DNA of 16,929 nt from a virus (lineage: Duplodnaviria; Heunggongvirae; Uroviricota; Caudoviricetes). Positions 1-15,995 of the stretch are shown in pieces. The number at the start of each line of letters is the position of its first letter. Position 1 is the stretch's first letter. Below the pieces are notes generated by a model. It ran no database searches. It saw only the letters and a program-made list of their open reading frames with translations, and was not told the origin of the DNA. The stretch spans positions 1 through 16,929 of the IMG/VR virus record IMGVR_UViG_3300028995_000083; one strand, written 5' to 3'. The translations under genes and the position numbers were made by a program.

Positions 1-1053
1 TTACGGGGTAATGCCAACCGCTGCCGCCACTTTGTCGCCACTTGGCAGCGTTGCCAGAGGATTGAAACGGAGCGCCGTTTCCAGATGATCCGGTGCCAGA
101 TGTGCGTAACGCATAGTCATTTTTATATCGTGGTGTCCGAGAATTTTTTGTAAGGCCAGAATGTTTCCACCCGACATCATGAAGTGCGCCGCAAACGTAT
201 GGCGCAGAACGTGTGTGAGTTGACCGCGAGGGAGCACGATAGACGTTTTTTCCATCACGGATAAAAATTGAAAATAGCAGTCTGTGAAGAAATTGAACCC
301 ATCAAGCGCCATGATCTCTTCGTAAAGCTCTTTACTGATAGGGATGCTTCTGTTTTTCTTCCCCTTCGTTCTTACAAAGGTAATTCGGTATTTGGTCACC
401 TGTGAACGAGTAAGATTTACGGCTTCTCGCCAGCGTGCGCCTGTGCTTAAGCATATCTTAACTACCAGTGCCAGAATTGGGTCCTGACGTTTGCAATCAG
501 CCAGTAATTCAACAATCTGCTCATGGGTAAGCCATGCCATCTCTTTTTCTGCGATGGTGAATTTTCGCATGTTCTCCAGTGGGTTCGGATACGACCATTC
601 GCCCAGGCGGGATAGTTCGCTAAAAACACTACTTAGATAGCTTTGCTCCAGGTTAATGGTGACCGGGCTTGCTCCTTTCTTCCATTTCTCGCTGAAGTAG
701 ATCTCACCTGTCAGGCGTTTATCTCGATAGTGGGCAAACATTTTAGAGGTTAGATCAGTTGCAAGGGGATTGCCCAGAGCGTCAACCATCAGCAGCAATT
801 TGTCATAGACATGCTGCCCAGCAGTCAGTGATTTACCATGTAGTTTGAACCATAGCTCAACCACGTCTTTCAGTGTTCGACGATCCACTGATTCACCTAG
901 CCAGGGCTTTGCTTCGGTTTCTTCCATCGTGTGACGCTCAAAAGCCAGTGCTTCGCCTTTGGTGGCGAATTGTTTACGCACACGACGCCCACTACGTCCG
1001 GCGGGGTAACATTCGCAAAGCCATTTTCCTGTGGTGAGTTTTCGTACAGCCAT
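1..1053 (-). CDS. int: Tyrosine integrase (P2/186 type)
   Basis: 350-aa product starting MAVRKLTTGKWLCECYPAGRSGRRVRKQFATKGEALAFE, typical of P2-family integrase N-termini; C-terminal region has an HxxR...Y-type catalytic layout (LRHTFAAHF...HHDIKMTMRYAHL). GGAGGG RBS before the ATG at 1053; the upstream in-frame extension to 1131 lacks an RBS. Confidence 0.9.
   Translation of the reverse strand: MAVRKLTTGKWLCECYPAGRSGRRVRKQFATKGEALAFERHTMEETEAKPWLGESVDRRTLKDVVELWFKLHGKSLTAGQHVYDKLLLMVDALGNPLATDLTSKMFAHYRDKRLTGEIYFSEKWKKGASPVTINLEQSYLSSVFSELSRLGEWSYPNPLENMRKFTIAEKEMAWLTHEQIVELLADCKRQDPILALVVKICLSTGARWREAVNLTRSQVTKYRITFVRTKGKKNRSIPISKELYEEIMALDGFNFFTDCYFQFLSVMEKTSIVLPRGQLTHVLRHTFAAHFMMSGGNILALQKILGHHDIKMTMRYAHLAPDHLETALRFNPLATLPSGDKVAAAVGITP
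19..40 (+). repeat. Candidate attL core (CGCTGCCGCCACTTTGTCGCCA), direct repeat of 14075..14096
   Basis: 21/22 identity with the copy immediately after the ogr stop codon; flanks on both sides of each copy are unrelated. Lies inside the 3' end of int. Confidence 0.55.
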
Positions 1054-1241
1054 AAAAAATGCCCTCCAATAGAGAGCATTTTTACTGTATGTATAACCAG
1101 TGTCAATGTATGAAATCCTGCGACCATACATCTCACTGAAGCCATAATGAAGTAGGCTATTCTTTTTGCTATGTGATCATGTAACTTTTGCGGTTAACCT
1201 GTGGCTCATTTTTATTTTAGGCGCAGATATAAAAGCAAAAG

Positions 1242-1433
1242 TTATCGTGAGTTTTTAGTACAGATTTTTTTGGATTTACTAATAGTTCCATCATTGCAAA
1301 CGAATTTGCCATCAGAGGTACAGTGAGAAACACCTCCCTTTTTCCCTGAGCAGGGATAATTTCTAGCATAGGTAGCTAGTGGGTTTAATAACAAAGAACA
1401 TGACAAAACCACAAAAAATACCTTACCAAGCAT
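1242..1433 (-). CDS. Small secreted or lipoprotein-like cysteine-rich protein (63 aa), putative moron in the cI-int operon
   Basis: GGGAGG RBS 5 nt before the ATG; hydrophobic N-terminal signal-like segment ([23 protein letters not shown]) then a Lys/Cys-rich mature part with 4 Cys; AT-rich relative to int and cI; same strand, between cI and int. Confidence 0.55.
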
Positions 1434-1448
1434 AATTTCCTCCCGGTA

Positions 1449-3948: not shown

Positions 3949-4802
3949 GCACCATCCTGAAATGGGCGGGAAATAAAACTGCCATAATGTCCGAACTGAA
4001 AAAACATCTTCCTGCTGGCCCGCGACTGGTTGAACCTTTCGCGGGTTCCTGTGCTGTGATGATGGAGACGGATTATCCCAGCTATCTGGTTGCGGATATT
4101 AATCCTGATTTAATCAACCTCTATAAAAAGGTTGCCGCTGATTGTGAATCGTTTATATCTCGCGCCAGAGTTTTATTTGAGATCGCAAACAGGGAGGTGG
4201 CTTATTACAACATAAGGCAGGAGTTTAATTACTCAACTGAAATTACTGATTTCATGAAAGCGGTATATTTCCTGTATCTCAATCGTCACGGTTACCGTGG
4301 TTTATGTCGCTATAACAAGAGCGGGCATTTCAACATTCCCTACGGTAATTATAAAAATCCGTATTTCCCTGAAAAAGAAATTCGCGCATTTGCAGAAAAG
4401 GCCCAGCGAGCAACGTTTATCTGCGCCAGCTTTGATGAAACGCTGGCGATGTTGAAGGCGGGGGATGTGGTGTATTGCGATCCGCCGTATGACGGTACGT
4501 TTTCCGGCTATCACACTGACGGCTTCACTGAAGATGACCAGTATCACCTGGCATCTGTTCTTGAACATCGGTCATCAGAAGGACATCCGGTCATTGTTTC
4601 TAACAGTGACACATCCCTGATCCGTTCGCTGTATCGCAATTTTACTCACCACTACATCAAGGCAAAACGCAGCATCGGTGTGGCAGCTGGCGAGGGTAAA
4701 TCAGCAACAGAAATCATTGCTGTTTCCGGGCCGCGCTGCTGGGTGGGATTTGATTATTCGCGTGGCGTGGATAGTTCTGCCGTGTACGGAGTACGTGCAT
4801 GA
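3945..4802 (+). CDS. dam: DNA adenine methyltransferase (Dam-like, N6-adenine MTase)
   Basis: 285 aa from ATG 3945 (GGAGGTG RBS). Motif I-like EPFAGSCAV near the N-terminus and catalytic DPPY ([12 protein letters not shown]); N-terminus [11 protein letters not shown] is typical of Dam-family enzymes. Confidence 0.9.
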
Positions 4803-7213
4803 GTCATGCCGATATGAACAACTGCTGCGGCTTTAACGAAGCTGCCGCATCGTTCTCATGGAACAGCTCGAAAAAGGCCATTAACCCTTATCTGGACCCG
4901 GTGGAAGTTGCGCCGGTTTCTACGCTTTCAAACCTGATCACTCTGTACGCTGCCGATAACGAGCAGGAACAGCTGCGCCGTGAGGCGCTGAGTGATCAGG
5001 TCTGGGAGCGTTATTTCTTTAATGAATCCCGTGATCCTGTCCAGCGCGAAATGGAACAGGATAAGCTCATTAGTCGGGCAAAGCTGGCGCATGAGCAGCA
5101 GCGTTTTAATCCGGATATGGTCATTCTGGCGGACGTCAACGCCCAGCCTTCCCATATCAGCAAGCCGCTGATGCAACGTATTGAATACTTCAGCAGCCTG
5201 GGCAGGCCAAAGGCTTATTCCCGCTATTTACGTGAGACGATTAAGCCATGTCTGGAACGACTGGAGCATGTACGCGACAGTCAGCTATCTGCATCTTTTC
5301 GCTTTATGGCAAGCCATGAAGGGCTGGACGGCCTGCTGATCCTGCCTGAAATGAGTCAGGATCAGGTGAAACGCCTGTCCACCCTGGTAGCTGCGCATAT
5401 GAGTATGTGCCTTGATGCCGCTTGTGGCGATTTGTATGCCACCGATGACGTTAAGCCAGAAGAAATCCGCAATACATGGGAAAGGGTGGCAGCGGAAACC
5501 CTGCGTCTGGATGTCATCCCGCCTGCGTTTGAGCAACTCCGTCGGAAAAGAAACCGCCGTAAACCCGTGCCCTATGAACTCATTCCGGGTTCGCTGGCGC
5601 GTATGTTGTGCGCCGACTGGTGGTATCGGAAATTATGGAAGATGCGTTGCGAATGGCGGGAAGAGCAGTTGCGTGCTGTCTGCCTTGTCAGCAAAAAAGC
5701 ATCTCCCTATGTCAGCTATGAAGCCGTGTTGCATAAACGTGAGCAGCGCCGTAAGTCGCTGGAGTTTTTCCGTTCTCATGAACTGGTGAACGAAGACGGC
5801 GACACGCTAGACATGGAGGATGTGGTAAACGCCAGCAGCAGCAACCCTGCGCATCGCCGCAATGAGATGATGGCCTGTGTTAAAGGTCTGGAGCTTATCG
5901 CGGAAATGCGCGGTGACTGCGCCGTTTTCTACACCATCACCTGTCCGTCACGTTTCCATTCCACGCTAAATAACGGCAGGCCCAACCCGACCTGGACAAA
6001 TGCGACGGTAAGACAAAGCAGCGATTATCTGGTCGGTATGTTTGCTGCATTTCGTAAGGCGATGCACAAAGCCGGGTTGCGCTGGTATGGCGTGCGGGTG
6101 GCTGAGCCGCATCACGACGGCACAGTTCACTGGCACCTGTTGTGTTTCATGCGCAAAAAAGACCGCCGCGCCATTACAGCATTGTTGCGTAAGTTTGCTA
6201 TCCGTGAAGACCGCGAGGAGCTGGGCAATAACACGGGGCCGCGCTTTAAGTCTGAGCTGATTAACCCGCGCAAAGGAACGCCGACAAGCTACATAGCGAA
6301 ATACATCAGTAAGAACATTGACGGGCGTGGTCTGGCTGGCGAGATCAGCAAGGAAACGGGTAAATCTCTGCGTGATAACGCTGAATACGTGAATGCCTGG
6401 GCGTCTTTGCATCGTGTTCAGCAATTCCGCTTCTTTGGCATTCCGGGGCGTCAGGCTTACCGTGAACTGCGATTGCTGGCTGGTCAGGCGGCAAGGCAAA
6501 AGGGGGACAAAAAAGCAGGTGCGCCGGTACTGGATAACCCGCGCCTTGATGCCATCCTGGCTGCTGCTGATGCTGGTTGTTTTGCCACCTACATCATGAA
6601 GCAGGGCGGCGTACTGGTTCCCCGTAAATATCACCTCATCAGAACCGCTTATGAAATCAACGAAGAGCCGACCGCCTATGGCGATCACGGCATTCGTATT
6701 TATGGCATCTGGTCACCCATTGCAGAGGGCAAGATCTGCACTCATGCAGTGAAGTGGAAAATGGTTCGTAAAGCCGTTGACGTTCAGGAGGCGGCAGCCG
6801 ACCAGGGCGCTTGCGCCCCTTGGACTCGTGGCAATAACTGTCCCCTTGCTGAAAATTTGTACCAACAAGGGAAAGACAAATCAGCTGATGGGGATACCAG
6901 AACGGATATTACCCGCATGGATGACAAGGAATTGCACGATTACCTGCACAGTATGAACAAAAAAGAGCGCCGGGAACTGGCTGCAAGGTTACGCCTGGTG
7001 AAACCGAAACGGCGTAAAGACTACAAACAGCGAATTACAGACCATCAGCGACAGCAGCTCGTCTATGAACTGAAGTCCAGAGGATTTGATGGCAGCGAGA
7101 AAGAGGTCGATTTACTCCTTCGCGGCGGCAGTATTCCGTCAGGAGCAGGCCTGCGTATCTTCTATCGGAACCAGCGTTTGCAGGAAGATGATAAGTGGCG
7201 AAACCTGTATTAA
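4799..7213 (+). CDS. Replication initiation endonuclease (P2/186 gene-A-like rolling-circle initiator)
   Basis: 804 aa; HUH-type motif ([10 protein letters not shown]) and a paired-tyrosine segment (YIAKYISKN) consistent with P2 gpA-family proteins; start overlaps the dam stop (ATGA). Confidence 0.9.
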
Positions 7214-7305
7214 TTACGCGGGTTAACAATTCGTGCTCTTAATAATACCAGGCATATCAGGCTGATGAACGTAAAAAAACGTTTTACATCAGTAAGATTA
7301 TTATA

Positions 7306-7325
7306 TACTGTAAATATAAACAGTG
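7306..7325 (+). promoter_or_regulatory. LexA (SOS) box TACTGTAAATATAAACAGTG
   Basis: Perfect CTGT-N8-ACAG core with TA/TG flanks; part of a larger palindrome (TACTGTAAATAT-N11-ATATTTACAGTA, 7306..7340); about 40 bp upstream of the 7366 ORF, downstream of a TTTACA -35-like hexamer at 7283..7288. Confidence 0.7.
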
Positions 7326-7365
7326 GTTATATTTACAGTATTGCTTTGGTGTCATAGGAGGAAAG

Positions 7366-7554
7366 ATGCAGGACTATTTTTTGGAGTCTTTGAAGCTCCA
7401 GCGCATTGATTTTTTTCTTAAGCTTGTAGCGGCTAGTGAGTGTAGTGATGAAGAGAAGGGGCTGGCTTTGCAGTGGGTTTCTGAACTAACAGATGAACTC
7501 ATGGCAAAAATCAGAACCCACGAATACAACCGCTCAATGGATGTCATCAGTTGA
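7366..7554 (+). CDS. Small SOS-controlled protein, possible Tum-like antirepressor N-terminal module
   Basis: 62 aa, strong AGGAGG RBS, directly downstream of the LexA box and upstream of the DinI-family gene; function inferred from position by analogy with 186 tum. Confidence 0.5.
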   Translation: MQDYFLESLKLQRIDFFLKLVAASECSDEEKGLALQWVSELTDELMAKIRTHEYNRSMDVIS

Positions 7555-7565
7555 GGTGACTTTTT

Positions 7566-7799
7566 ATGCGCATTGAAATAATGATCGATAAAGAGCAGAA
7601 GATTAGCCAGTCTACCCTGGACGCCCTTGAATCCGAGCTTTACCGCAATCTGCGTCCTCTGTATCCCAAAATGGTAATTCGTATCCGCAAAGGTAGCTCT
7701 AACGGTGTGGAACTGACCGGATTGCAACTGGACGAAGAAAGAAAACAAGTGATGAAAATTATGCAGAAGGTGTGGGAAGACGACAGCTGGCTGCATTAA
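7566..7799 (+). CDS. dinI: DinI-family protein (DNA-damage-inducible protein I-like)
   Basis: 77 aa; MRIEIMIDKEQKISQSTLDALESELYRNL...VWEDDSWLH parallels E. coli DinI in length and pattern (MRIEV...ETWE..DW); GAGGTG RBS; in the LexA-controlled transcription unit. Confidence 0.85.
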   Translation: MRIEIMIDKEQKISQSTLDALESELYRNLRPLYPKMVIRIRKGSSNGVELTGLQLDEERKQVMKIMQKVWEDDSWLH

Positions 7800-8069
7800 G
7801 AAACGTTGCTGGCGTCTGAACTTGCTTCTGGCGTCAGCAAGGTTGAACAACGAGCTATGCGAGGCGTTAGTGTCAATTTGTTACCTTAACCACTATATAT
7901 GCCAGGAAATTAACAGTTCTTAAGAAACAGCTTGCATGATCGAGCGCATTGAACTTAAGTTTAAGTAACGCAATCAACAGATGATATTGTTGTCTAAATT
8001 TTAAAGATAATCTGTTGAGGTTGTAGGCGTCGGAGTGTAGACTTCCGCGCCATGTGAAAAGGGGGAGTT

Positions 8070-8285
8070 ATGTCAAGCATCGCCGCATTTAGCCTGGGTA
8101 ACCCAGTTGAACGTCTGGCAAGGGTTCTTAAAGAGAACCAGGACAAACTCAATCTTAGTAAAGATGGTTTTGTGTCCGTAGACTTGTCTAACAAAAGAGC
8201 AATGGATGCCATCAAGGCACAGATGGATAAGCTTGAAGGCATCAAAACGAGCACTGTAAAAGAGAAAACTAATAGAACCAGATAA
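8070..8285 (+). CDS. Hypothetical small soluble protein (71 aa), first gene of cargo operon
   Basis: Strong RBS (AAAGGGGGAG) before ATG 8070; Lys-rich, no TM segment; stop overlaps the start of the next gene (TAATG); AT-rich. Confidence 0.6.
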   Translation: MSSIAAFSLGNPVERLARVLKENQDKLNLSKDGFVSVDLSNKRAMDAIKAQMDKLEGIKTSTVKEKTNRTR

Positions 8286-9127
8286 TGGCAACATTACTTT
8301 TAGCAGTGATTTTGGTTAGTGGTTTTATTTATGTAAACCTATCACTTTCAACAAGATACCGATATAAGCGTTCCAACGGCTGGGACGCTTATTTTTTTGT
8401 GGCTGCCTGGGGTATCGTTTTTTTTCTCCTTGGCGGTTTTTTCACCTTTATTTTGAACGTCAGCGGAGGGTTTCGTTGGCTGGCTAATGCCTTGAATCTA
8501 ACACCTGACAGTTTTAATGGCATGTTGTCTTCATCGAAAGACAAACTTCAAAGAATAAATGAAATCAAACAGATAGCATGGGTTATGATTTCAATTGTCC
8601 TCGCTGCGATTTCAGGTTTTGGAAATAAGTTACGCACATCACGTGGAGATCGTCGTTGGGATGCCTTAGCTAAAGCTGTGGGTAATAACGCTTTCGAATC
8701 ATTACTCATGGAAGCGTCCGCAAGACAGTTTCCGATCATAGCAACTCTGTCGTCTCGCAAAATCTATGTTGGTCTTGTTACTTGTCCGGCGTTAGAAAAC
8801 GGGCTTTCAGAGCACCTTGAACTTCTCCCGATGTTAAGCGGATATCGGGATAAAGATGATCTAACGATTAGTATCACGACTAACTATCACCAACATTATC
8901 TTGATAGTGGTGTGATAAGTGGAATGTCTCGGCTTAATATCGAAGATTTCCGTGTGCTCATACCAAAAGATGAGGTTGAAACAATTTCGTTTTTTGATAC
9001 TGAGACATATAACAAATTTAAAGAAAATGAAGCCAGGGATAGAAAGAACTGTCGAAAGATTGATAGTAAAAGTGCATCTTCGCGCAGCAAGCGTGCAGCA
9101 GATGCTGAGTCAAATGATCGTGCATGA
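8285..9127 (+). CDS. Hypothetical membrane protein (280 aa; three predicted N-terminal TM helices plus about 165-aa charged cytoplasmic domain)
   Basis: Hydrophobic segments at about residues 2-19, 36-57 and 96-112, then a soluble Lys/Arg/Asp-rich domain; translationally coupled to the 8070 gene; AT-rich; no family recognised. Confidence 0.7.
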   Translation: MATLLLAVILVSGFIYVNLSLSTRYRYKRSNGWDAYFFVAAWGIVFFLLGGFFTFILNVSGGFRWLANALNLTPDSFNGMLSSSKDKLQRINEIKQIAWVMISIVLAAISGFGNKLRTSRGDRRWDALAKAVGNNAFESLLMEASARQFPIIATLSSRKIYVGLVTCPALENGLSEHLELLPMLSGYRDKDDLTISITTNYHQHYLDSGVISGMSRLNIEDFRVLIPKDEVETISFFDTETYNKFKENEARDRKNCRKIDSKSASSRSKRAADAESNDRA

Positions 9128-9175
9128 CTATGCTGCATGAGATCGCATGATCGTTTGAGGATCGTTTTTGCTAGG

Positions 9176-9199
9176 GCCCGCCAGAACTGGCGGGCTTTC
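9176..9199 (+). terminator. Candidate intrinsic terminator after the two-gene cargo operon
   Basis: GC-rich hairpin GCCCGCCA-gaac-TGGCGGGC followed by only TTT; about 50 nt after the 9127 stop. The short T tract makes this tentative. Confidence 0.4.
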
Positions 9200-9244
9200 G
9201 CGTAGATCATGCACCTGCATGAAAACTACTACATAAAGCGGGCA

Positions 9245-9257
9245 GGCGTGGCGGGGA
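9245..9257 (+). other. Possible cos-site remnant (GGCGTGGCGGGGA)
   Basis: Isolated GC-rich block inside AT-rich DNA; from memory it matches the first 13 nt of the 19-nt cohesive end of 186/P2-family phages (GGCG[T/A]GGCGGGGAAAGCA...), after which similarity is lost. Recollection not verified. Confidence 0.35.
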
Positions 9258-9364
9258 TACGAGCGCGCGCAACAGTGTAACAATCTGGATCTAATGTGAT
9301 ATAGTTACTGTAAATATTATTAACTATTCTTATATGCATTATTAAATATTTTAATGGAGCGTTT

Positions 9365-11038
9365 ATGGAAAAATATCAAGATGAGGAATATGTAGATGAT
9401 TTAACTGAGCGTGTTTTTCTCATTAAGCAACAACTGGAAGCGGGAAAACTAAAAATAGCTCATCATCTTGTAGAAGGTTTTATTGAAAGTTTTAAAAGAA
9501 TAAGGCTGCGACAGGATGGTAAAGTTGACCCTTCTACTGTTGATGGCAGAATAAGGGCTATGGGAGCAGCGGTTAATCACTTTTTAGAAAGAGAAGATAT
9601 AAAAAACAAATACTCTATTCAGGACTTGCAAAGTTCTTACTTTAATATTCTTTTTAGTAATTTTGGCGAGTTGTTTTATCTGATGAAAAAAACTAATGCA
9701 ACGCCACATAAAGCATCAAGTTTTTTTTCTCAACAAGAAGAATATGTTAAGCAAATAGAAGATATTTTTCCTGAGTTATATAATCAGGTAATAGAGTTTT
9801 GGCAGGTAACATCCGATATTGGTGTAATACATTTGCAGGATGGTTCTCAGTTTAAAGCTAATTTTTCTGGTGACTTATTTCCTGCATTTGATGAGAATGC
9901 TGTCTCTATTGCAGGGTTGTATGTTGATACTATTTCACTTCCATGTCCTATATTAAGAGTCGGTCGTCTCTATGAAAAGTCAGATAAGGCTGAGTTTACA
10001 AGGATACTTCTGAAGCATGTCCTAACATGTATGACATATAAAGAAGTAGCGCTTGAAGATATAGAGCCAGCAATAGTATTAATTTTGCCGGATAGAAGAG
10101 ATTTTGAAACTGAGAGCAAAAAAAATTTGATGAGTTTTTGTGAGCCTTATGCTCTGACTCATGCGCAATATCTCTATGATCGACGGTTCGAAAGCTACGA
10201 TGAATTTCGAGATTTTAGTTATTCGATGAATGATATTGATGCTGTTCTTAAAAATATTAAGAGAGCAGATAGACTTATTTTTGATACAGCATGGGGGCTA
10301 AATCCAAAAACTCAATTAGAAAAACTACTATCTGATAAAAAAAGAATATCACGTAATGTTGTTGGTGATCATGCTGGAATGGAGGTTTTCCTTTCCTGCA
10401 TTGGAAGAATGCCGCAAGCCTATTCAGCAAAATGTAATGCACAAGAACTTGGTAGTACTCCATATATAAATGCAGACACATCTTGGCTCTATTATACTTG
10501 GCTTATTGAGTACGAATCTCTTAATTTTGATGTCAATGATATTGAACTAAAAAATTTGCATATGGTTCATGCGTTATCTGCTGGTATGCAAGATGGTTTT
10601 TCATGGTTAGGAAATGTACCGGTCAATAAAATAATTGAGTTGAGACGTAACAAATTGATGGAGGATGTAAGATCCATCTTATCAAATGGTGTTGACTCTT
10701 TAATCAATTCTTCGGCAGAGAGCTTTTCGAGGACAACGCAAAAAGTAATTGATAATGTAGACCGGGCTTTTATTGAACATCAAAGGATTCTTGCAAAAGC
10801 CCAAAAAGAGAAATTGAGAATTTACGGACTAGATGTCCTACCATGTATCGCAAATGGTGCTATAGCAATTGCTGGAGCGCTGACTGGCAATACTACTTTA
10901 ACGGCGTTAAGTGCAGGCCTTGGAGTAATAGGTATTCCGAGTATTAGTGATATCAAATCTAAATTTAAGCAGAGGCAAGAGAAGCTTGATGCCTATCAAC
11001 GTTCTGTTACAGGTATACTCTTTAGCCATAAATCTTAA
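9365..11038 (+). CDS. Hypothetical 557-aa protein with C-terminal glycine-zipper-like hydrophobic segment; candidate defense / abortive-infection effector
   Basis: Long uninterrupted AT-rich ORF with TGGAG RBS; no Walker A, no RT YxDD, no HTH recognised; hydrophobic Gly/Ala-rich stretch at residues about 486-524 (LDVLPCIANGAIAIAGALTGNTTLTALSAGLGVIGIPSI); PD...ESK string at residues 242-252; flanked by terminator-like hairpins. Confidence 0.75.
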   Translation: MEKYQDEEYVDDLTERVFLIKQQLEAGKLKIAHHLVEGFIESFKRIRLRQDGKVDPSTVDGRIRAMGAAVNHFLEREDIKNKYSIQDLQSSYFNILFSNFGELFYLMKKTNATPHKASSFFSQQEEYVKQIEDIFPELYNQVIEFWQVTSDIGVIHLQDGSQFKANFSGDLFPAFDENAVSIAGLYVDTISLPCPILRVGRLYEKSDKAEFTRILLKHVLTCMTYKEVALEDIEPAIVLILPDRRDFETESKKNLMSFCEPYALTHAQYLYDRRFESYDEFRDFSYSMNDIDAVLKNIKRADRLIFDTAWGLNPKTQLEKLLSDKKRISRNVVGDHAGMEVFLSCIGRMPQAYSAKCNAQELGSTPYINADTSWLYYTWLIEYESLNFDVNDIELKNLHMVHALSAGMQDGFSWLGNVPVNKIIELRRNKLMEDVRSILSNGVDSLINSSAESFSRTTQKVIDNVDRAFIEHQRILAKAQKEKLRIYGLDVLPCIANGAIAIAGALTGNTTLTALSAGLGVIGIPSISDIKSKFKQRQEKLDAYQRSVTGILFSHKS

Positions 11039-11043
11039 TGTAG

Positions 11044-11074
11044 AGGGCCGAGGTATTCGGCCCTTAGTTTTATA
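11044..11074 (+). terminator. Intrinsic terminator after the 557-aa gene
   Basis: Hairpin AGGGCCG-aggtatt-CGGCCCT followed by T-rich TAGTTTTATAT, 6 nt after the stop codon. Confidence 0.6.
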
Positions 11075-11220
11075 TGAAACTGTATGGCATGAATTTTATT
11101 ATGTCATCTTTGAGCCATTTATTGAGTTCTTCTATTCTGTTTTGTAGCGGTATCAATTCATTACGCATAAAAACCTTACTAGCCTTCTCCACATCCCCAA
11201 ATCCCCCAACATTATTCGGC

Positions 11221-12186
11221 ATTATCCCCATCATTTGCGGCGGCACTCGGTGTGCTGCCATCATGTCATCCCGGCTCACGTTCTTGATAGGTCTTGTGGT
11301 TACTGCACTGGCGGGTGTGGCGCTGGTTGTCTGGAAATACTGGCAGCCCATCACCGCATTTCTCGGTGGCGTGGTGGAAGGATTCAAAGCGGCGGCAGGT
11401 CCTGTCAGTGCCGCGTTCGAACCGCTTAAGCCTGTGTTCCAGTGGATTGGCGACAAAGTACAGGCGCTGTGGGGCTGGTTTACTGATCTGCTGACGCCCG
11501 TTAAGTCGACCTCTGCCGAACTGCAGAGTGCAGCGGCAATGGGGCGACGATTCGGGGAGGCTCTGGCGGAAGGGCTGAATATGGTCATGCATCCGCTGGA
11601 CTCCCTGAAATCCGGCGTTTCCTGGTTGCTGGAGAAACTTGGCATTGTCAGTAAAGAGGCCGCAAAGGCGAAACTGCCGGAAAGCGTGACGCGTCAGCAA
11701 CCTGCGACGGTGAATGCAGACGGTAAAGTGATGATGCCATCGGGTGGTTTTCCGTCATGGGGATATGGCTTTGCGGGGATGTATGACAGCGGCGGGTATA
11801 TCCCGCGCGGGCAGTTTGGCATCGTCGGTGAAAACGGGCCGGAAATTGTTAACGGCCCGGCAAATGTGACCAGCCGGAGAAATACAGCTGCACTGGCTGC
11901 CGTTGTTGCCGGAATGATGGGTGTTGCTGCTACGCCAGCAGAGCTTCCACCGTTGCACCCTTTGGCACTTCCCGCGAAAGGCGGTGAAGCGATGGTGAGT
12001 CGTGCAGCCACTGTGCTGCCCGTTCAACGGATTGAGGCACCGATGCAGATCATCATTCAGACGCAGCCAGGACAAAGTGCGCAGGATATTGCGCGGGAGG
12101 TGGCCCGCCAGCTTGATGAACGTGAACGCAGGCTGAAGGCAAAAGCCAGGAGTAACTACAGCGATCAGGGGGGATACGACGCATGA
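11221..12186 (+). pseudogene. 5'-truncated tail tape-measure gene (P2 gpT / 186 G-like), C-terminal fragment only
   Basis: Translation from about residue 50 of the 11074 ORF onward is Ala/Gly-rich with tape-measure character (AFLGGVVEGFKAAAGPVSAAFEPLKPVFQWIGDKVQALWGW...) and is followed by U and D as in the P2 FETUD operon; upstream 150 nt is AT-rich with no RBS; a full tape measure would be about 800 aa. 5' boundary approximate. Confidence 0.7.
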
Positions 12187-14150: not shown

Positions 14151-14197
14151 CAACAAAAAACCCATCAACCTTGAACCGAAATGGCGGGGTTGATGGG
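14151..14197 (-). terminator. Candidate intrinsic terminator downstream of ybjL (minus strand)
   Basis: Inverted repeat CCCATCAACC / GGTTGATGGG (14161..14170 and 14188..14197) with a T6 run immediately after the stem on the minus strand; about 110 nt beyond the ybjL stop. The loop is long. Confidence 0.45.
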
Positions 14198-14309
14198 CTC
14201 CACAAAATGGGGACATCAAAGAAAAGCAGTGGCACTAATTAAGACTGATGCCCTGCGGAAAAGTTCTGCGGTTGTGCAAAAAAATTTCATTTTCAGGGCA
14301 ACTTCAGTT

Positions 14310-15995
14310 TTATCCTAATCCTGGCCATACCATGACGATGATTGTCCCTGCCAGCGTCAGCAGGACGTTGGCGATTGCGTAGGTGCCCGCGTAGCCCAGC
14401 GCAGGGATGTTACTGCGAGCTGTATCACTGATGATCTCCATTGCCGGCGCGCAGGTGCGTGCGCCCATCATTGCGCCGAACAACAGTGCGCGGTTCATTC
14501 GCAATACATAAGCACCGAACAAGAAACAGATAACCACGGGCACAAGACTGACAATTAATCCGGCAATCAACATCTGACCGCCAATCGCGCCCAGGCCGTT
14601 ATTAATACCGCTACCGGCGCTCAGACCAACGCCTGCCATAAACACCATCAAGCCGAACTCTTTCACCATGCTTAATGCACCTTGCGGAATGTAACCGAAG
14701 GTCGGGTGGTTAGCACGCATAAAGCCCAGCATAATTCCGGCGAATAACAACCCGGCAGCGTTCCCCATGCCGAAACTGAATGTGCTGAACTGGAAGGTGA
14801 TCATCCCGATCATCAGCCCAATAACAAAGAAGGCGCAAAATGCCAGCAGGTCAGTGACCTGGCTGTGAATCGAGATAAAGCCGATGCGATCGGCGATGGT
14901 TTTTACGCGACGGGCATCACCGCTGACTTGTAAAACGTCACCTTTGTTAAGCACGACGTTGTCATCTATCGGCATCTCAATCTGGCTACGAATGACGCGG
15001 TTAAGGAAGCAACCGTGATCGGTCAACTTCAGTTGTGCGAGACGTTTACCTACAGCGTTATGGTTTTTAACGACCACTTCTTCAGTGACGATACGCATGT
15101 CGAGAAGGTCACGATCGAAAACTTCTTTACCGTTACGGAAGCTGGGATCGAGTCGGGCATGGGCGTCGGGATAGCCTACCAACGCTATTTCATCGCCCAT
15201 TTGTAGCACGGCATCACCGTCTGGATTTGCCAGAATCCCGTTACGTCGAATACGTTCAATGTAGCAGCCGGTTTGTCGATAAATACCCAGTTCACGCAGA
15301 TTTTTGCCGTCGGTCCAGGCCACCAGCTCCGGGCCGACGCGATAGGCGCGGATCACCGGTAAATAAACCTTACGGTTGGCATCAGTGTCCAGGCCACGTT
15401 CGCGGGCGATTTGCTGGGCGCTGGTCTGTAAGTCCTGATGCTGCAATTTCGGCAAGTAACGCGCACCAACAATCAAACTCACCAGACCGATTAAATAGGT
15501 TAAGGCATACCCGAGGCTCAGATTATCCAGTGCCAGTGAGAGCTGCCTGCTTTCCATGCCGGAATGACGCAGTGTATCGCCAGCACCGACCAGAACCGGT
15601 GTCGACGTCATAGAGCCTGCTAACATACCGGCCGTCAGGCCAATATCCCAGCCAAACAGCTTACCTAACCCTAAGGCGATCACCAGCGCACTGCCAACCA
15701 TCACCAGTGCTAACATTAGGTAATTTTTCCCATCGCGAAAAAAAATGGAAAAAAAGTTCGGTCCGGCTTCGACCCCGACGCAGAAAATAAACAGCATAAA
15801 GCCAAGATTAAGCGCATCGGTGTTAATGCTGAAATGTTGTTGGCCTAATAACAGCGATACGACTAAAACGCCAATGGAATTACCCAGTTGGATCGAACCA
15901 AGTCGTAACTTTCCGAGACATAGCCCAAGCGCGAGGACCACAAATAATAACAGAATGTAATTCCCATTTAACAATTCGGCGACGTTTATATTCAC
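14310..15995 (-). CDS. ybjL: Putative transport protein YbjL (AAE-family membrane transporter)
   Basis: 561-aa product [39 protein letters not shown]... recognised as E. coli YbjL; membrane domains flank a central soluble region; GTG start as given by the ORF track. Confidence 0.9.

What the first reader, a model, noticed from the sequence alone, without database searches (positions are those of the whole stretch)
7995..11235. AT-rich cargo island of three uncharacterised genes at the P2-family defence hotspot position
Between the replication/SOS module and the remnant late genes lies about 3 kb of DNA that is visibly more AT-rich than the flanking prophage genes. It encodes three proteins (71 aa, 280 aa with three TM helices, 557 aa) in which I recognise no known family. 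In P2-like phages the interval after gene A, where tin and old sit in P2, is an established hotspot for mobile anti-phage systems. A small protein plus a membrane protein plus a large effector-like protein is a typical architecture for abortive-infection or defence modules. This is the strongest candidate for a previously undescribed system in the window.
Basis: partly seen in the sequence, partly recalled or inferred. Interest (0 to 1): 0.85.

Follow-up and report, generated by a model that had tools for sequence, protein, structure and literature searches.

The report
Two separate phage cargo cassettes flanking cos
The AT-rich "three-gene island" is really two unrelated mobile gene cassettes on either side of the prophage's DNA-packaging (cos) site, at a well-known hotspot for anti-phage genes; both are plausible but untested defence candidates, and one was already catalogued in 2022.

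Summary
ORFs of 71, 280 (three TM helices) and 557 aa lie at 8070-11038 in low-GC DNA (0.35-0.42, flanks 0.53-0.56). They sit between gpA/DinI and a portal remnant of a degraded 186/P2-like prophage.

The interpretation as one three-gene system does not hold. A cos site (9245-9263) lies between the 280-aa and 557-aa genes. Comparative breakpoints define two cassettes, 7871-9119 (71+280 pair) and 9271-~11106 (557), separated by a conserved cos core. Among 5426 complete E. coli genomes the pair occurs in 52, the 557 gene in 17, and both together in 1.

The 71+280 pair is a strictly conserved, translationally coupled operon. It encodes a small basic protein and a 3-TM protein with a cytoplasmic Sm/Hfq-like beta-barrel, and no described family matches it.

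The 557-aa protein stands alone, with no conserved neighbour in 19 loci. Its central domain is remotely similar to DitB of the Aditi defence system (E 7e-10), and it ends in a Gly/Ala-rich hydrophobic hairpin. Relatives occur in P4-like satellites, integrase islands and beside Old, Mokosh, Avs and type IIG RM genes. Rousset et al. 2022 listed it as untested P2-hotspot system #79.

Both are probably independent phage-exclusion modules, but this is inferred, not shown. Interest is moderate.

The parts
7871..9119 (+). Cassette 1: the whole insert carrying the 71-aa + 280-aa operon with its promoter region
   Evidence: E. coli PE15 (L002) matches the window at 7202-7870 and again from 9120, with only 7 bp in between. 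The same cassette is followed by different cargo in other prophages.
7974..8018 (.). Inverted repeat (arms 7974-7988 and 8004-8018) carrying CAACAG/CTGTTG half-sites that overlap the -35 element; possible operator
   Evidence: The half-sites average 1.6 per 140 nt in 33 distinct upstream regions, against about 0.27 expected. The loci are related, so this is suggestive only.
8014..8042 (+). Promoter-like element of cassette 1: TTGAGG, 17 nt, TG-extended TAGACT
   Evidence: Read from the sequence. The -10 box and the 'CTTCCGCGCCAT' block are conserved upstream of the small gene in divergent loci. Not found by the stricter consensus scan. Inferred.
8070..8285 (+). 71-aa basic protein (pI 9.9), phrog_9843; its stop codon overlaps the start codon of the next gene by 1 nt
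   Evidence: A homologue was detected directly upstream of the 280-aa homologue in 75 of 80 viral loci. It is also present in Pectobacterium and Shewanella.
8285..9127 (+). 280-aa inner-membrane protein: 3 TM helices, a helical linker and a C-terminal Sm/LSm/Hfq-like beta-barrel (about residues 136-236); phrog_3630
9120..9270 (.). Conserved backbone core between the cassettes, containing a strong hairpin (9171-9203) and the cos site
   Evidence: Shared at 99.6-99.9% identity by prophages that lack either cassette. The 55-nt stretch containing the hairpin (9161-9215) folds at -24.7 kcal/mol.
9245..9263 (+). cos cohesive-end equivalent, GGCGTGGCGGGGATACGAG (P2: GGCGAGGCGGGGAAAGCAC)
   Evidence: Window 9216-9270 aligns with the P2 cosR/cosL junction (41/55 identities, E 3e-5, best hit in the window). 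The core motif lies 120-250 nt after the 280-aa gene in most (54) of the 80 viral loci.
9271..11106 (+). Cassette 2: the insert carrying the 557-aa gene in the cos-to-portal slot
   Evidence: Prophages with the pair plus SieB or a KAP NTPase match the window up to 9270 and again from about 11107-11115.
9277..9305 (+). Promoter-like site for the 557-aa gene (GTAACA, 17 nt, TG-extended TATAGT)
   Evidence: A consensus match only.
9365..11038 (+). 557-aa protein: N-terminal helical bundle, DitB-like alpha/beta core (about 164-452), long helical hairpin, and a C-terminal Gly/Ala-rich hydrophobic hairpin (488-530)
   Evidence: PADLOC DitB E 7.3e-10 over residues 195-452; 21 of 34 family members hit DitB. 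AlphaFold2 pLDDT 81, pTM 0.73. No solved-structure match. Hydropathy. Identical to WP_024235280.1, which is system #79 of Rousset 2022.
11043..11065 (.). GC-rich hairpin followed by a T-run; a terminator between the convergent 557-aa gene and the portal remnant
   Evidence: -16.8 kcal/mol.

Best explanation
Interval 7995-11235 holds two independent accessory cassettes of a P2/186-family prophage. They occupy two neighbouring variable slots on either side of the cos site.

Cassette 1 (7871-9119) is the last operon before cos. It encodes a small basic protein that is translationally coupled to a 3-TM inner-membrane protein with a cytoplasmic Sm-like beta-barrel. I infer that the membrane protein assembles, like other Sm-fold proteins, into a ring at the inner membrane. 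There it would act as a phage-exclusion module. It would either open a leak or pore when its beta-barrel senses a phage nucleic acid or ligand (abortive infection), or it would block incoming DNA. The small protein would be its regulator or partner, possibly an autorepressor acting on the CAACAG/CTGTTG repeats over the promoter.

Cassette 2 (9271-~11106) fills the cos-to-portal slot. It is a self-contained single gene with its own promoter and terminator. Its product has a DitB-like (Aditi) core and a C-terminal glycine-zipper-like hairpin. I infer a one-protein defence in which the soluble N-terminal and DitB-like parts sense infection and the C-terminal hairpin inserts into the membrane to stop the infected cell.

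Shown: the gene anatomy, the cos position, the independence of the two cassettes, their mobility, the remote DitB homology, the Sm-like fold, and the defence-rich neighbourhoods of 557-aa homologues.

Inferred: the anti-phage function and both mechanisms.
For: Two cassettes:
- The breakpoints are clean: 7870/9120 against PE15 and 9270/~11107 against ECCRA-119 and fS58a.
- cos lies at 9245-9263.
- The pair is in 52 genomes, the 557 gene in 17, and both in 1 of 5426. Only 1 of 80 viral loci has both.
- The cos-to-portal distance varies from 200 nt to 3 kb behind an identical pair.
- Rousset Table S5A lists the pair with SieB or other genes, and the 557 gene alone.

Pair as a unit:
- A small ORF ends within -3 to +15 nt of the 280-aa homologue's start in all 33 distinct loci examined, down to 30-45% identity.
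- DinI plus the pair is retained in the Pectobacterium chromosome with no other phage gene called in the 12.8-kb loci read.

557-aa protein as a standalone defence-like gene:
- No neighbour family is shared by more than 3 of 19 loci.
- 760 clusters at 50% identity, mostly full length.
- DitB hits in 21 of 34 members.
- Homologues lie after psu in P4-like satellites, in an integrase island, and next to an HTH + reverse-transcriptase gene pair near a prophage end.
- Neighbours hit Old (1e-193), type IIG RM (E 0), MkoA (3.5e-97), Avs2 (3e-48), MADS genes, AriA and AbiLi.
- The G/A-rich C-terminal hairpin is conserved: G488, G498, L512 and G523 are invariant.

Background rate: six of eight randomly chosen unknown P4 hotspot loci gave phage protection (PMC13586616).
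Against: - There is no functional data for either cassette. Neither is among the systems tested by Rousset 2022, nor among those described as validated in PMC13586616.
- The P2 hotspot also carries non-defence cargo, such as partition systems and cytolethal distending toxin.
- The DitB similarity is remote and partial (250 of 361 profile positions), and Aditi itself has no known mechanism.
- No catalytic motif or known fold was found for the 557-aa core.
- The C-terminal hairpin is only weakly hydrophobic (Kyte-Doolittle 1.46-1.62).
- Ring formation, nucleic-acid sensing and pore activity of the 280-aa protein are extrapolated from the Sm fold alone.
- The operator idea rests on related sequences, and 9 of 33 upstream regions lack the half-sites.
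Confidence: 0.6

Rival explanations
1. All three genes form one tripartite defence system (small regulator + membrane protein + large effector).
For: The genes are adjacent, on the same strand and all low in GC. The identical arrangement recurs in E. coli 210221272 and in one IMG/VR contig, L042.
Against: cos lies between the genes. The breakpoints are independent. Co-occurrence is 1 of 5426 genomes, against 52 and 17 for the parts. Each part occurs with other partners or alone. There is a strong hairpin after the 280-aa gene and a separate promoter-like site before the 557-aa gene. GC also differs between the parts, 0.41 against 0.35.
Confidence: 0.04
2. The 71+280 pair is not an abortive-infection module but a lysogenic-conversion function. 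It could be classical superinfection exclusion that blocks DNA entry at the inner membrane without killing the cell, or a host-fitness membrane channel or stress protein.
For: The 280-aa protein has a membrane location with a small cytoplasmic domain. In ECCRA-119 the pair sits beside a SieB-family gene. DinI plus the pair is retained in Pectobacterium chromosomes, with no other phage gene called in the loci read, next to an MscK-like gene. The architecture of 3 TM helices plus an Sm-like barrel recalls MscS (own knowledge: the MscS middle domain is classed as Sm-like).
Confidence: 0.25
3. One or both cassettes have nothing to do with phage exclusion. They could be anti-defence or counter-satellite genes, virulence or colonisation factors, or selfish addiction modules that merely ride the hotspot.
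For: The P2 hotspot also carries partition systems and cytolethal distending toxin. No catalytic or defence-diagnostic domain was found in any of the three proteins. The cassettes sit next to cos, where early-entering or late-packaged genes could serve the phage itself.
Against: Homologues of the 557-aa protein sit in defence-rich neighbourhoods in unrelated bacteria and in satellite and integrase islands without any P2 context. The DitB link is to a validated defence system. Most unknown hotspot loci tested so far were protective.
Confidence: 0.15

Closest known systems
Aditi defence system (DitA + DitB; Millman et al. 2022, as modelled in PADLOC-DB 2.0.0)
   Same: The central alpha/beta region of the 557-aa protein (residues 195-452) matches the DitB profile (positions 95-344 of 361, E 7.3e-10). 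21 of 34 diverse family members also hit it. Both are cargo of defence islands or mobile elements, and neither has a recognised domain.
   Different: There is no DitA: none of the five neighbouring proteins scanned hits it, and no partner is conserved in 19 loci. The 557-aa protein is about 200 residues longer than the DitB profile. It has an extra N-terminal helical bundle and a C-terminal helical and hydrophobic hairpin. Aditi's mechanism is itself unknown, so the homology transfers no mechanism.
P2 gpA-gpQ hotspot systems of Rousset et al. 2022 (old, tin, Rst_DUF4238, Rst_3HP, DprA-PRTase, TIR+TM of phage AC1)
   Same: The genomic position is the same and the cargo is likewise low in GC, short and swappable. 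The 557-aa protein is literally entry #79 of their Table S5B, and the pair appears in their Table S5A.
   Different: The three proteins were absent from both tables of systems cloned and tested, validated and additional (N-terminal strings not found in Table S2). They have no PADLOC hit to those systems. The paper treats gpA-gpQ as one locus, whereas here the cargo resolves into a pre-cos slot and a post-cos slot.
Membrane effectors of abortive-infection systems (CBASS Cap15/2TM effectors, retron 2TM, RexB, Hydrolase+3TM of P4)
   Same: These are N-terminal TM helices joined to a small cytoplasmic ligand-binding beta-barrel or partner protein. Such TM proteins are thought to kill or arrest the infected cell (statement in PMC9122126).
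   Different: There is no sequence or profile similarity to any of them. The cytoplasmic domain here is Sm/Hfq/WYL-like. No signal-generating enzyme is encoded alongside; the only partner is a 71-aa basic protein.
Sm/LSm/Hfq and WYL small beta-barrel domains
   Different: Pfam detects no Sm, LSM or WYL sequence signature. The fusion to three TM helices is not described for these families in the papers I could search.

Membership tests
Aditi (DitA/DitB) | Protein matches the DitB profile | tested here: met
   PADLOC DitB E 7.3e-10, 36 bits, residues 195-452 against profile positions 95-344 of 361. 21 of 34 family members hit at E<0.01. The match is remote and partial.
Aditi (DitA/DitB) | A DitA gene adjacent to DitB (two-gene system) | tested here: not met
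   No DitA hit among the five proteins encoded at 7366-11038. No neighbour family is conserved in 19 loci of the 557-aa family. DitA is not among the 25 listed PADLOC families of 135 neighbour proteins (only the top 25 of 113 are shown, so weak single hits could be hidden).
Aditi (DitA/DitB) | Confers phage resistance | not testable with these tools
   Needs cloning and phage challenge.
P2-family gpA-gpQ defence/diversity hotspot cargo | Located between the replication gene A and the portal gene Q, next to cos | tested here: met
   gpA 4799-7213, cos 9245-9263, portal remnant from 11070 on the minus strand.
P2-family gpA-gpQ defence/diversity hotspot cargo | Content varies among otherwise near-identical prophages | tested here: met
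   1282 genomes match the flanks and 1 matches the whole interval. Alternative cargo includes SieB, KAP NTPase, SEFIR and DUF2971.
Rst_3HP (three hypothetical proteins, P2 hotspot, anti-P1; Rousset 2022) | Sequence identity or homology to the three cloned proteins | tested here: not met
   The N-terminal strings of all three window proteins are absent from Table S2 (validated and other tested systems). There are no PADLOC hits other than DitB and LeoBC.
MscS-type mechanosensitive channels | Three TM helices followed by an Sm-like beta domain | tested here: inconclusive
MscS-type mechanosensitive channels | Match to the MS_channel profile or sequence | tested here: not met
   No Pfam MS_channel hit in any of 34 family members. 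hhalign of the family profile against an MscK-like protein gives probability 0.4%.
Sm/LSm/Hfq fold | N-terminal helix plus a strongly bent five-stranded beta-barrel | tested here: met
Sm/LSm/Hfq fold | Sm sequence motifs, or hexa/heptameric ring assembly and RNA binding | not tested
   No Pfam LSM or Hfq hit.
Eleos/dynamin-like (LeoA/LeoBC) | Match to LeoBC and presence of a GTPase domain | tested here: not met
   Only 1 of 34 members hits LeoBC, at E 0.0046, over the C-terminal helices. No GTPase domain was found.

The most novel reading that the evidence does not exclude
Both cassettes are new kinds of membrane-acting phage-exclusion devices. (i) The 71+280 pair would be the first membrane-embedded Sm-ring sensor-effector, in which a cytoplasmic Sm/WYL-like ring detects phage nucleic acid and gates a pore built from its own TM helices. 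(ii) The 557-aa protein would be a one-polypeptide relative of Aditi. It would show that the DitB core is the infection sensor and that a glycine-zipper hairpin can replace DitA as effector, giving the first mechanistic handle on Aditi. In addition, the P2 'hotspot' would be two mechanistically distinct recombination slots flanking cos.
Probability: 0.2. Interest if true: 0.7.

Novelty: new variant of a known kind. Interest (0 to 1): 0.45.

Why it matters
If either cassette protects against phages, it adds compact systems of one or two genes to the E. coli defence catalogue. A standalone DitB-like protein would give a simpler entry point to the uncharacterised Aditi family. A TM-anchored Sm-like barrel would be an unreported sensor-effector design.

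The practical lesson for hotspot mining is that the P2 gpA-gpQ interval consists of two slots separated by cos. Adjacency there does not imply a shared system, so candidate systems should be delimited by comparative breakpoints before cloning. Otherwise this is typical hotspot cargo of the sort already catalogued by the hundred.

Tried and rejected
- Pfam, NCBIfam and PHROGs gave no functional annotation for the three proteins. Pfam on all 34 members of each family also gave nothing consistent.
- A sequence search of PDB found nothing.
- The AFDB Foldseek library was unavailable.
- The N-terminally extended relatives (700-840 aa) gave no Pfam or PADLOC domain for the extension. A database search with that extension found one fragment only, so that search was wasted.
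- The MscS hypothesis for the 280-aa protein was tested by hhalign and rejected at sequence level.
- Rfam found no RNA family inside the interval.
- Literature searches by the three RefSeq accessions and for DitA/DitB/Aditi mechanism found nothing. So did a search for Sm-like TM effectors. None of these turned up a functional study.
- A tblastn of the presumed psu ORF of L019 against the phage collection found nothing. P4-likeness was then shown by a direct comparison with P4 proteins.

Full report
**Observation.** The window carries a degraded 186/P2-family prophage. Its genes in order are:
- integrase (1-1131, minus strand)
- CI repressor
- CII
- DUF5347
- Dam methylase
- gpA (4799-7213)
- a 62-aa ORF
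- DinI (7566-7799)
- a short C-terminal portal remnant on the minus strand from 11070, fused near 11289 to a tape-measure remnant
- gpU and gpD
- host genes: RybB sRNA and a YbjL-like permease

GC is 0.42, 0.41 and 0.35 for these, against 0.53 for gpA and 0.56 for the late genes. The 280-aa protein has three hydrophobic helices. No Pfam or NCBIfam family is hit.

**The interval is two cassettes, not one island.** The intergenic stretch 9128-9364 contains a sequence that aligns with the P2 cosR/cosL junction. It matches 41 of 55 positions at E 3e-5, is the best hit in the window and has the same orientation. The 19-nt cohesive-end equivalent is GGCGTGGCGGGGATACGAG at 9245-9263.

Pairwise comparisons give clean, independent breakpoints.
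- E. coli PE15 has the 557-aa gene but not the pair. It matches the window at 7202-7870 and 9120-11289.
- ECCRA-119 and fS58a have the pair followed by SieB or a KAP P-loop NTPase. They match 7200-9270 and again only from about 11107.

Cassette 1 is therefore 7871-9119 and cassette 2 is 9271-~11106. A conserved 150-bp core (hairpin 9171-9203 plus cos) lies between them.

In the packaged linear genome the pair is the last operon at the right end. The 557-aa gene is the first gene at the left end, convergent with Q.

Among 5426 complete E. coli genomes the pair occurs in 52, the 557-aa gene in 17, and both in one, strain 210221272, which has an intact portal unlike the window.

In 80 IMG/VR loci carrying the 280-aa gene:
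- The cos core motif follows it by 120-250 nt in most (54) of them.
- The cos-to-portal distance ranges from about 200 nt (empty, as in P2 itself) to about 3 kb.
- Only one locus (L042) contains the 557-aa gene.

Table S5A of Rousset et al. 2022 independently lists the pair with SieB or with other hypotheticals, and the 557-aa gene alone after DinI.

**Cassette 1.** The stop codon of the 71-aa gene overlaps the 280-aa start codon by one base. In all 33 distinct loci examined, a 55-104-aa ORF ends within -3 to +15 nt of the 280-aa homologue's start. All but the most divergent (Shewanella, 13% identity) share an N-terminal motif resembling 'ERLxxVLKEN'. This holds down to about 30-45% identity, in P2-like phages of Klebsiella and Salmonella and in phage contigs with no detectable P2-type gpA or portal gene. 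It also holds in a Shewanella P2-like prophage and in a Pectobacterium chromosomal DinI+pair locus.

The small protein is basic (pI 9.9).

A promoter-like element (TTGAGG, 17 nt, TG-extended TAGACT) and the block after it are conserved with the cassette. It is overlapped by an inverted repeat built of CAACAG/CTGTTG half-sites. These are about six-fold enriched upstream of the small gene across loci. This hints at an operator, perhaps for the 71-aa protein, but the loci are not independent and 9 of 33 lack the sites.

**Cassette 2.** The 557-aa protein is identical to WP_024235280.1. It is entry #79 (no domain, '2 TM', 49 occurrences) in Table S5B of Rousset et al. 2022. It is absent from their tables of tested systems.

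The family is large: 760 clusters at 50% identity with E<=1e-3. Members are mostly full length at about 550 aa, and some carry an extra 200-300-aa N-terminal domain of unknown type. It spans Gamma-, Beta- and Alphaproteobacteria and Bacteroidota.

In 19 loci no neighbouring gene family is shared by more than three, so the gene acts alone. Its contexts are mobile and defence-rich:
- after psu in P4-like satellites of Enterobacter and Pseudocitrobacter
- in an integrase/AlpA island between mutS and recA in Aeromonas
- next to an HTH + reverse-transcriptase gene pair near a prophage end
- with neighbours that hit Old, type IIG RM, Mokosh MkoA/MkoC, Avs2, MADS, AriA and AbiLi models strongly

The only family link is PADLOC DitB (Aditi): E 7.3e-10 over residues 195-452, reproduced in 21 of 34 members. 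DitA is absent.

The AlphaFold2 model (pLDDT 81, pTM 0.73) has no counterpart among solved structures. The only hydrophobic part is a conserved Gly/Ala-rich hairpin at 488-530. A TG-extended promoter-like site (9277-9305) and a hairpin plus T-run terminator (11043-11065) bracket the gene.

**Mechanism (inferred).** I consider each cassette an independent phage-exclusion module.
- For the pair, the anatomy suggests an inner-membrane assembly. Its cytoplasmic Sm/WYL-like barrel would sense a nucleic acid or small ligand, and its TM helices would either leak or depolarise the membrane (abortive infection) or obstruct DNA entry. The small basic protein would be a regulator or partner.
- For the 557-aa protein, the soluble N-terminal bundle and DitB-like core would sense infection, and the C-terminal glycine-zipper-like hairpin would attack the membrane.

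None of these steps is demonstrated, and Aditi's own mechanism is unknown. The hotspot also carries non-defence cargo. However, six of eight randomly chosen unknown P4-hotspot loci proved protective in a recent study (PMC13586616), so the prior for defence is reasonably high.

I put the two-cassette anatomy at above 0.9. I put an anti-phage role at roughly 0.6 for the 557-aa gene and 0.45 for the pair. The specific membrane mechanisms are at about 0.2-0.3.

**Comparison with known systems and novelty.** The locus is a textbook instance of the P2 gpA-gpQ hotspot. The 557-aa protein is not a canonical Aditi system, because there is no DitA and the architecture differs. It is best called a standalone DitB-like variant, and it was already catalogued but untested. 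The pair has no described counterpart beyond PHROG families of unknown function. A TM-anchored Sm-like barrel is unusual, and I found no report of one in a defence context.

Overall this is a new variant of a known kind and not a new three-gene system. Interest is moderate. It offers useful, cleanly delimited candidates and a cautionary example that adjacency across cos does not make a system. It is not surprising to a specialist.

Noticed in passing
window 9120-9270: The prophage cos site (9245-9263) and a strong hairpin (9171-9203) form a conserved core that splits the gpA-gpQ 'hotspot' into a pre-cos slot and a post-cos slot. The two slots are filled independently. In P2 itself the post-cos slot is empty (167 nt).
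   Followed up: yes
window 7974-8042: An inverted repeat with CAACAG/CTGTTG half-sites overlaps the -35 of the promoter-like element of the 71-aa gene. The half-sites are about 6-fold enriched upstream of the small gene in 33 distinct loci. It may be an operator, perhaps for the 71-aa basic protein.
   Followed up: partly
window 11070-11400: A portal-gene C-terminal remnant (minus strand) is fused near 11289 to a tape-measure remnant, so everything from Q to most of T is deleted. The window is therefore not from strain 210221272 (intact portal), although 7200-11289 is 99.98% identical to it (100.0% by megablast). The tape-measure side matches the remnant in strain PE15. Both cargo cassettes remain intact in this dead prophage.
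   Followed up: partly
window 14152-14230 (-) and 14310-15995 (-): RybB sRNA (Rfam 105 bits) and a YbjL-like Asp-Al_Ex/TrkA-C permease mark the host flank. The prophage sits between rcdA and rybB.
   Followed up: no
window 1132-1448 versus L001 1306-2982: In strain 210221272 a 558-aa DUF4041 protein gene lies between the integrase and CI. The window has only about 320 bp of low-GC DNA there. This is a second variable slot (int-CI) in the same prophage lineage.
   Followed up: no
L019 8001-9668 and L031 7409-9076: 57%-identical homologues of the 557-aa protein lie just after a psu-like gene in elements with P4-like int, cI and alpha primase (Enterobacter soli, Pseudocitrobacter). [quoted passage not shown]
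   Followed up: partly
L011-L013 5372-6819 (Pectobacterium): DinI + 65-aa + 272-aa homologues sit in the chromosome next to an MscK-like gene, with no other phage gene called in the 12.8-kb loci read, and this recurs on several contigs. It looks like a domesticated remnant, which argues that the pair has value to the host.
   Followed up: no
proteins P0216, P0275, P0282, P0290, P0296, P0302, P0303, P0309, P0318, P0322: Relatives of the 557-aa protein with an extra 200-300-residue N-terminal domain that has no convincing Pfam or PADLOC match (P0275 gave only a weak HTH-like PADLOC hit, E 0.0099). It may be an added sensor module.
   Followed up: partly
L007 5853-7492 (Klebsiella phage ST15-OXA48phi14.1): Behind the same pair, the post-cos slot carries a 69-aa gene plus a SEFIR-domain protein. 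SEFIR is a known defence domain, so a recognised defence gene occupies the slot that the 557-aa gene occupies in the window.
   Followed up: no
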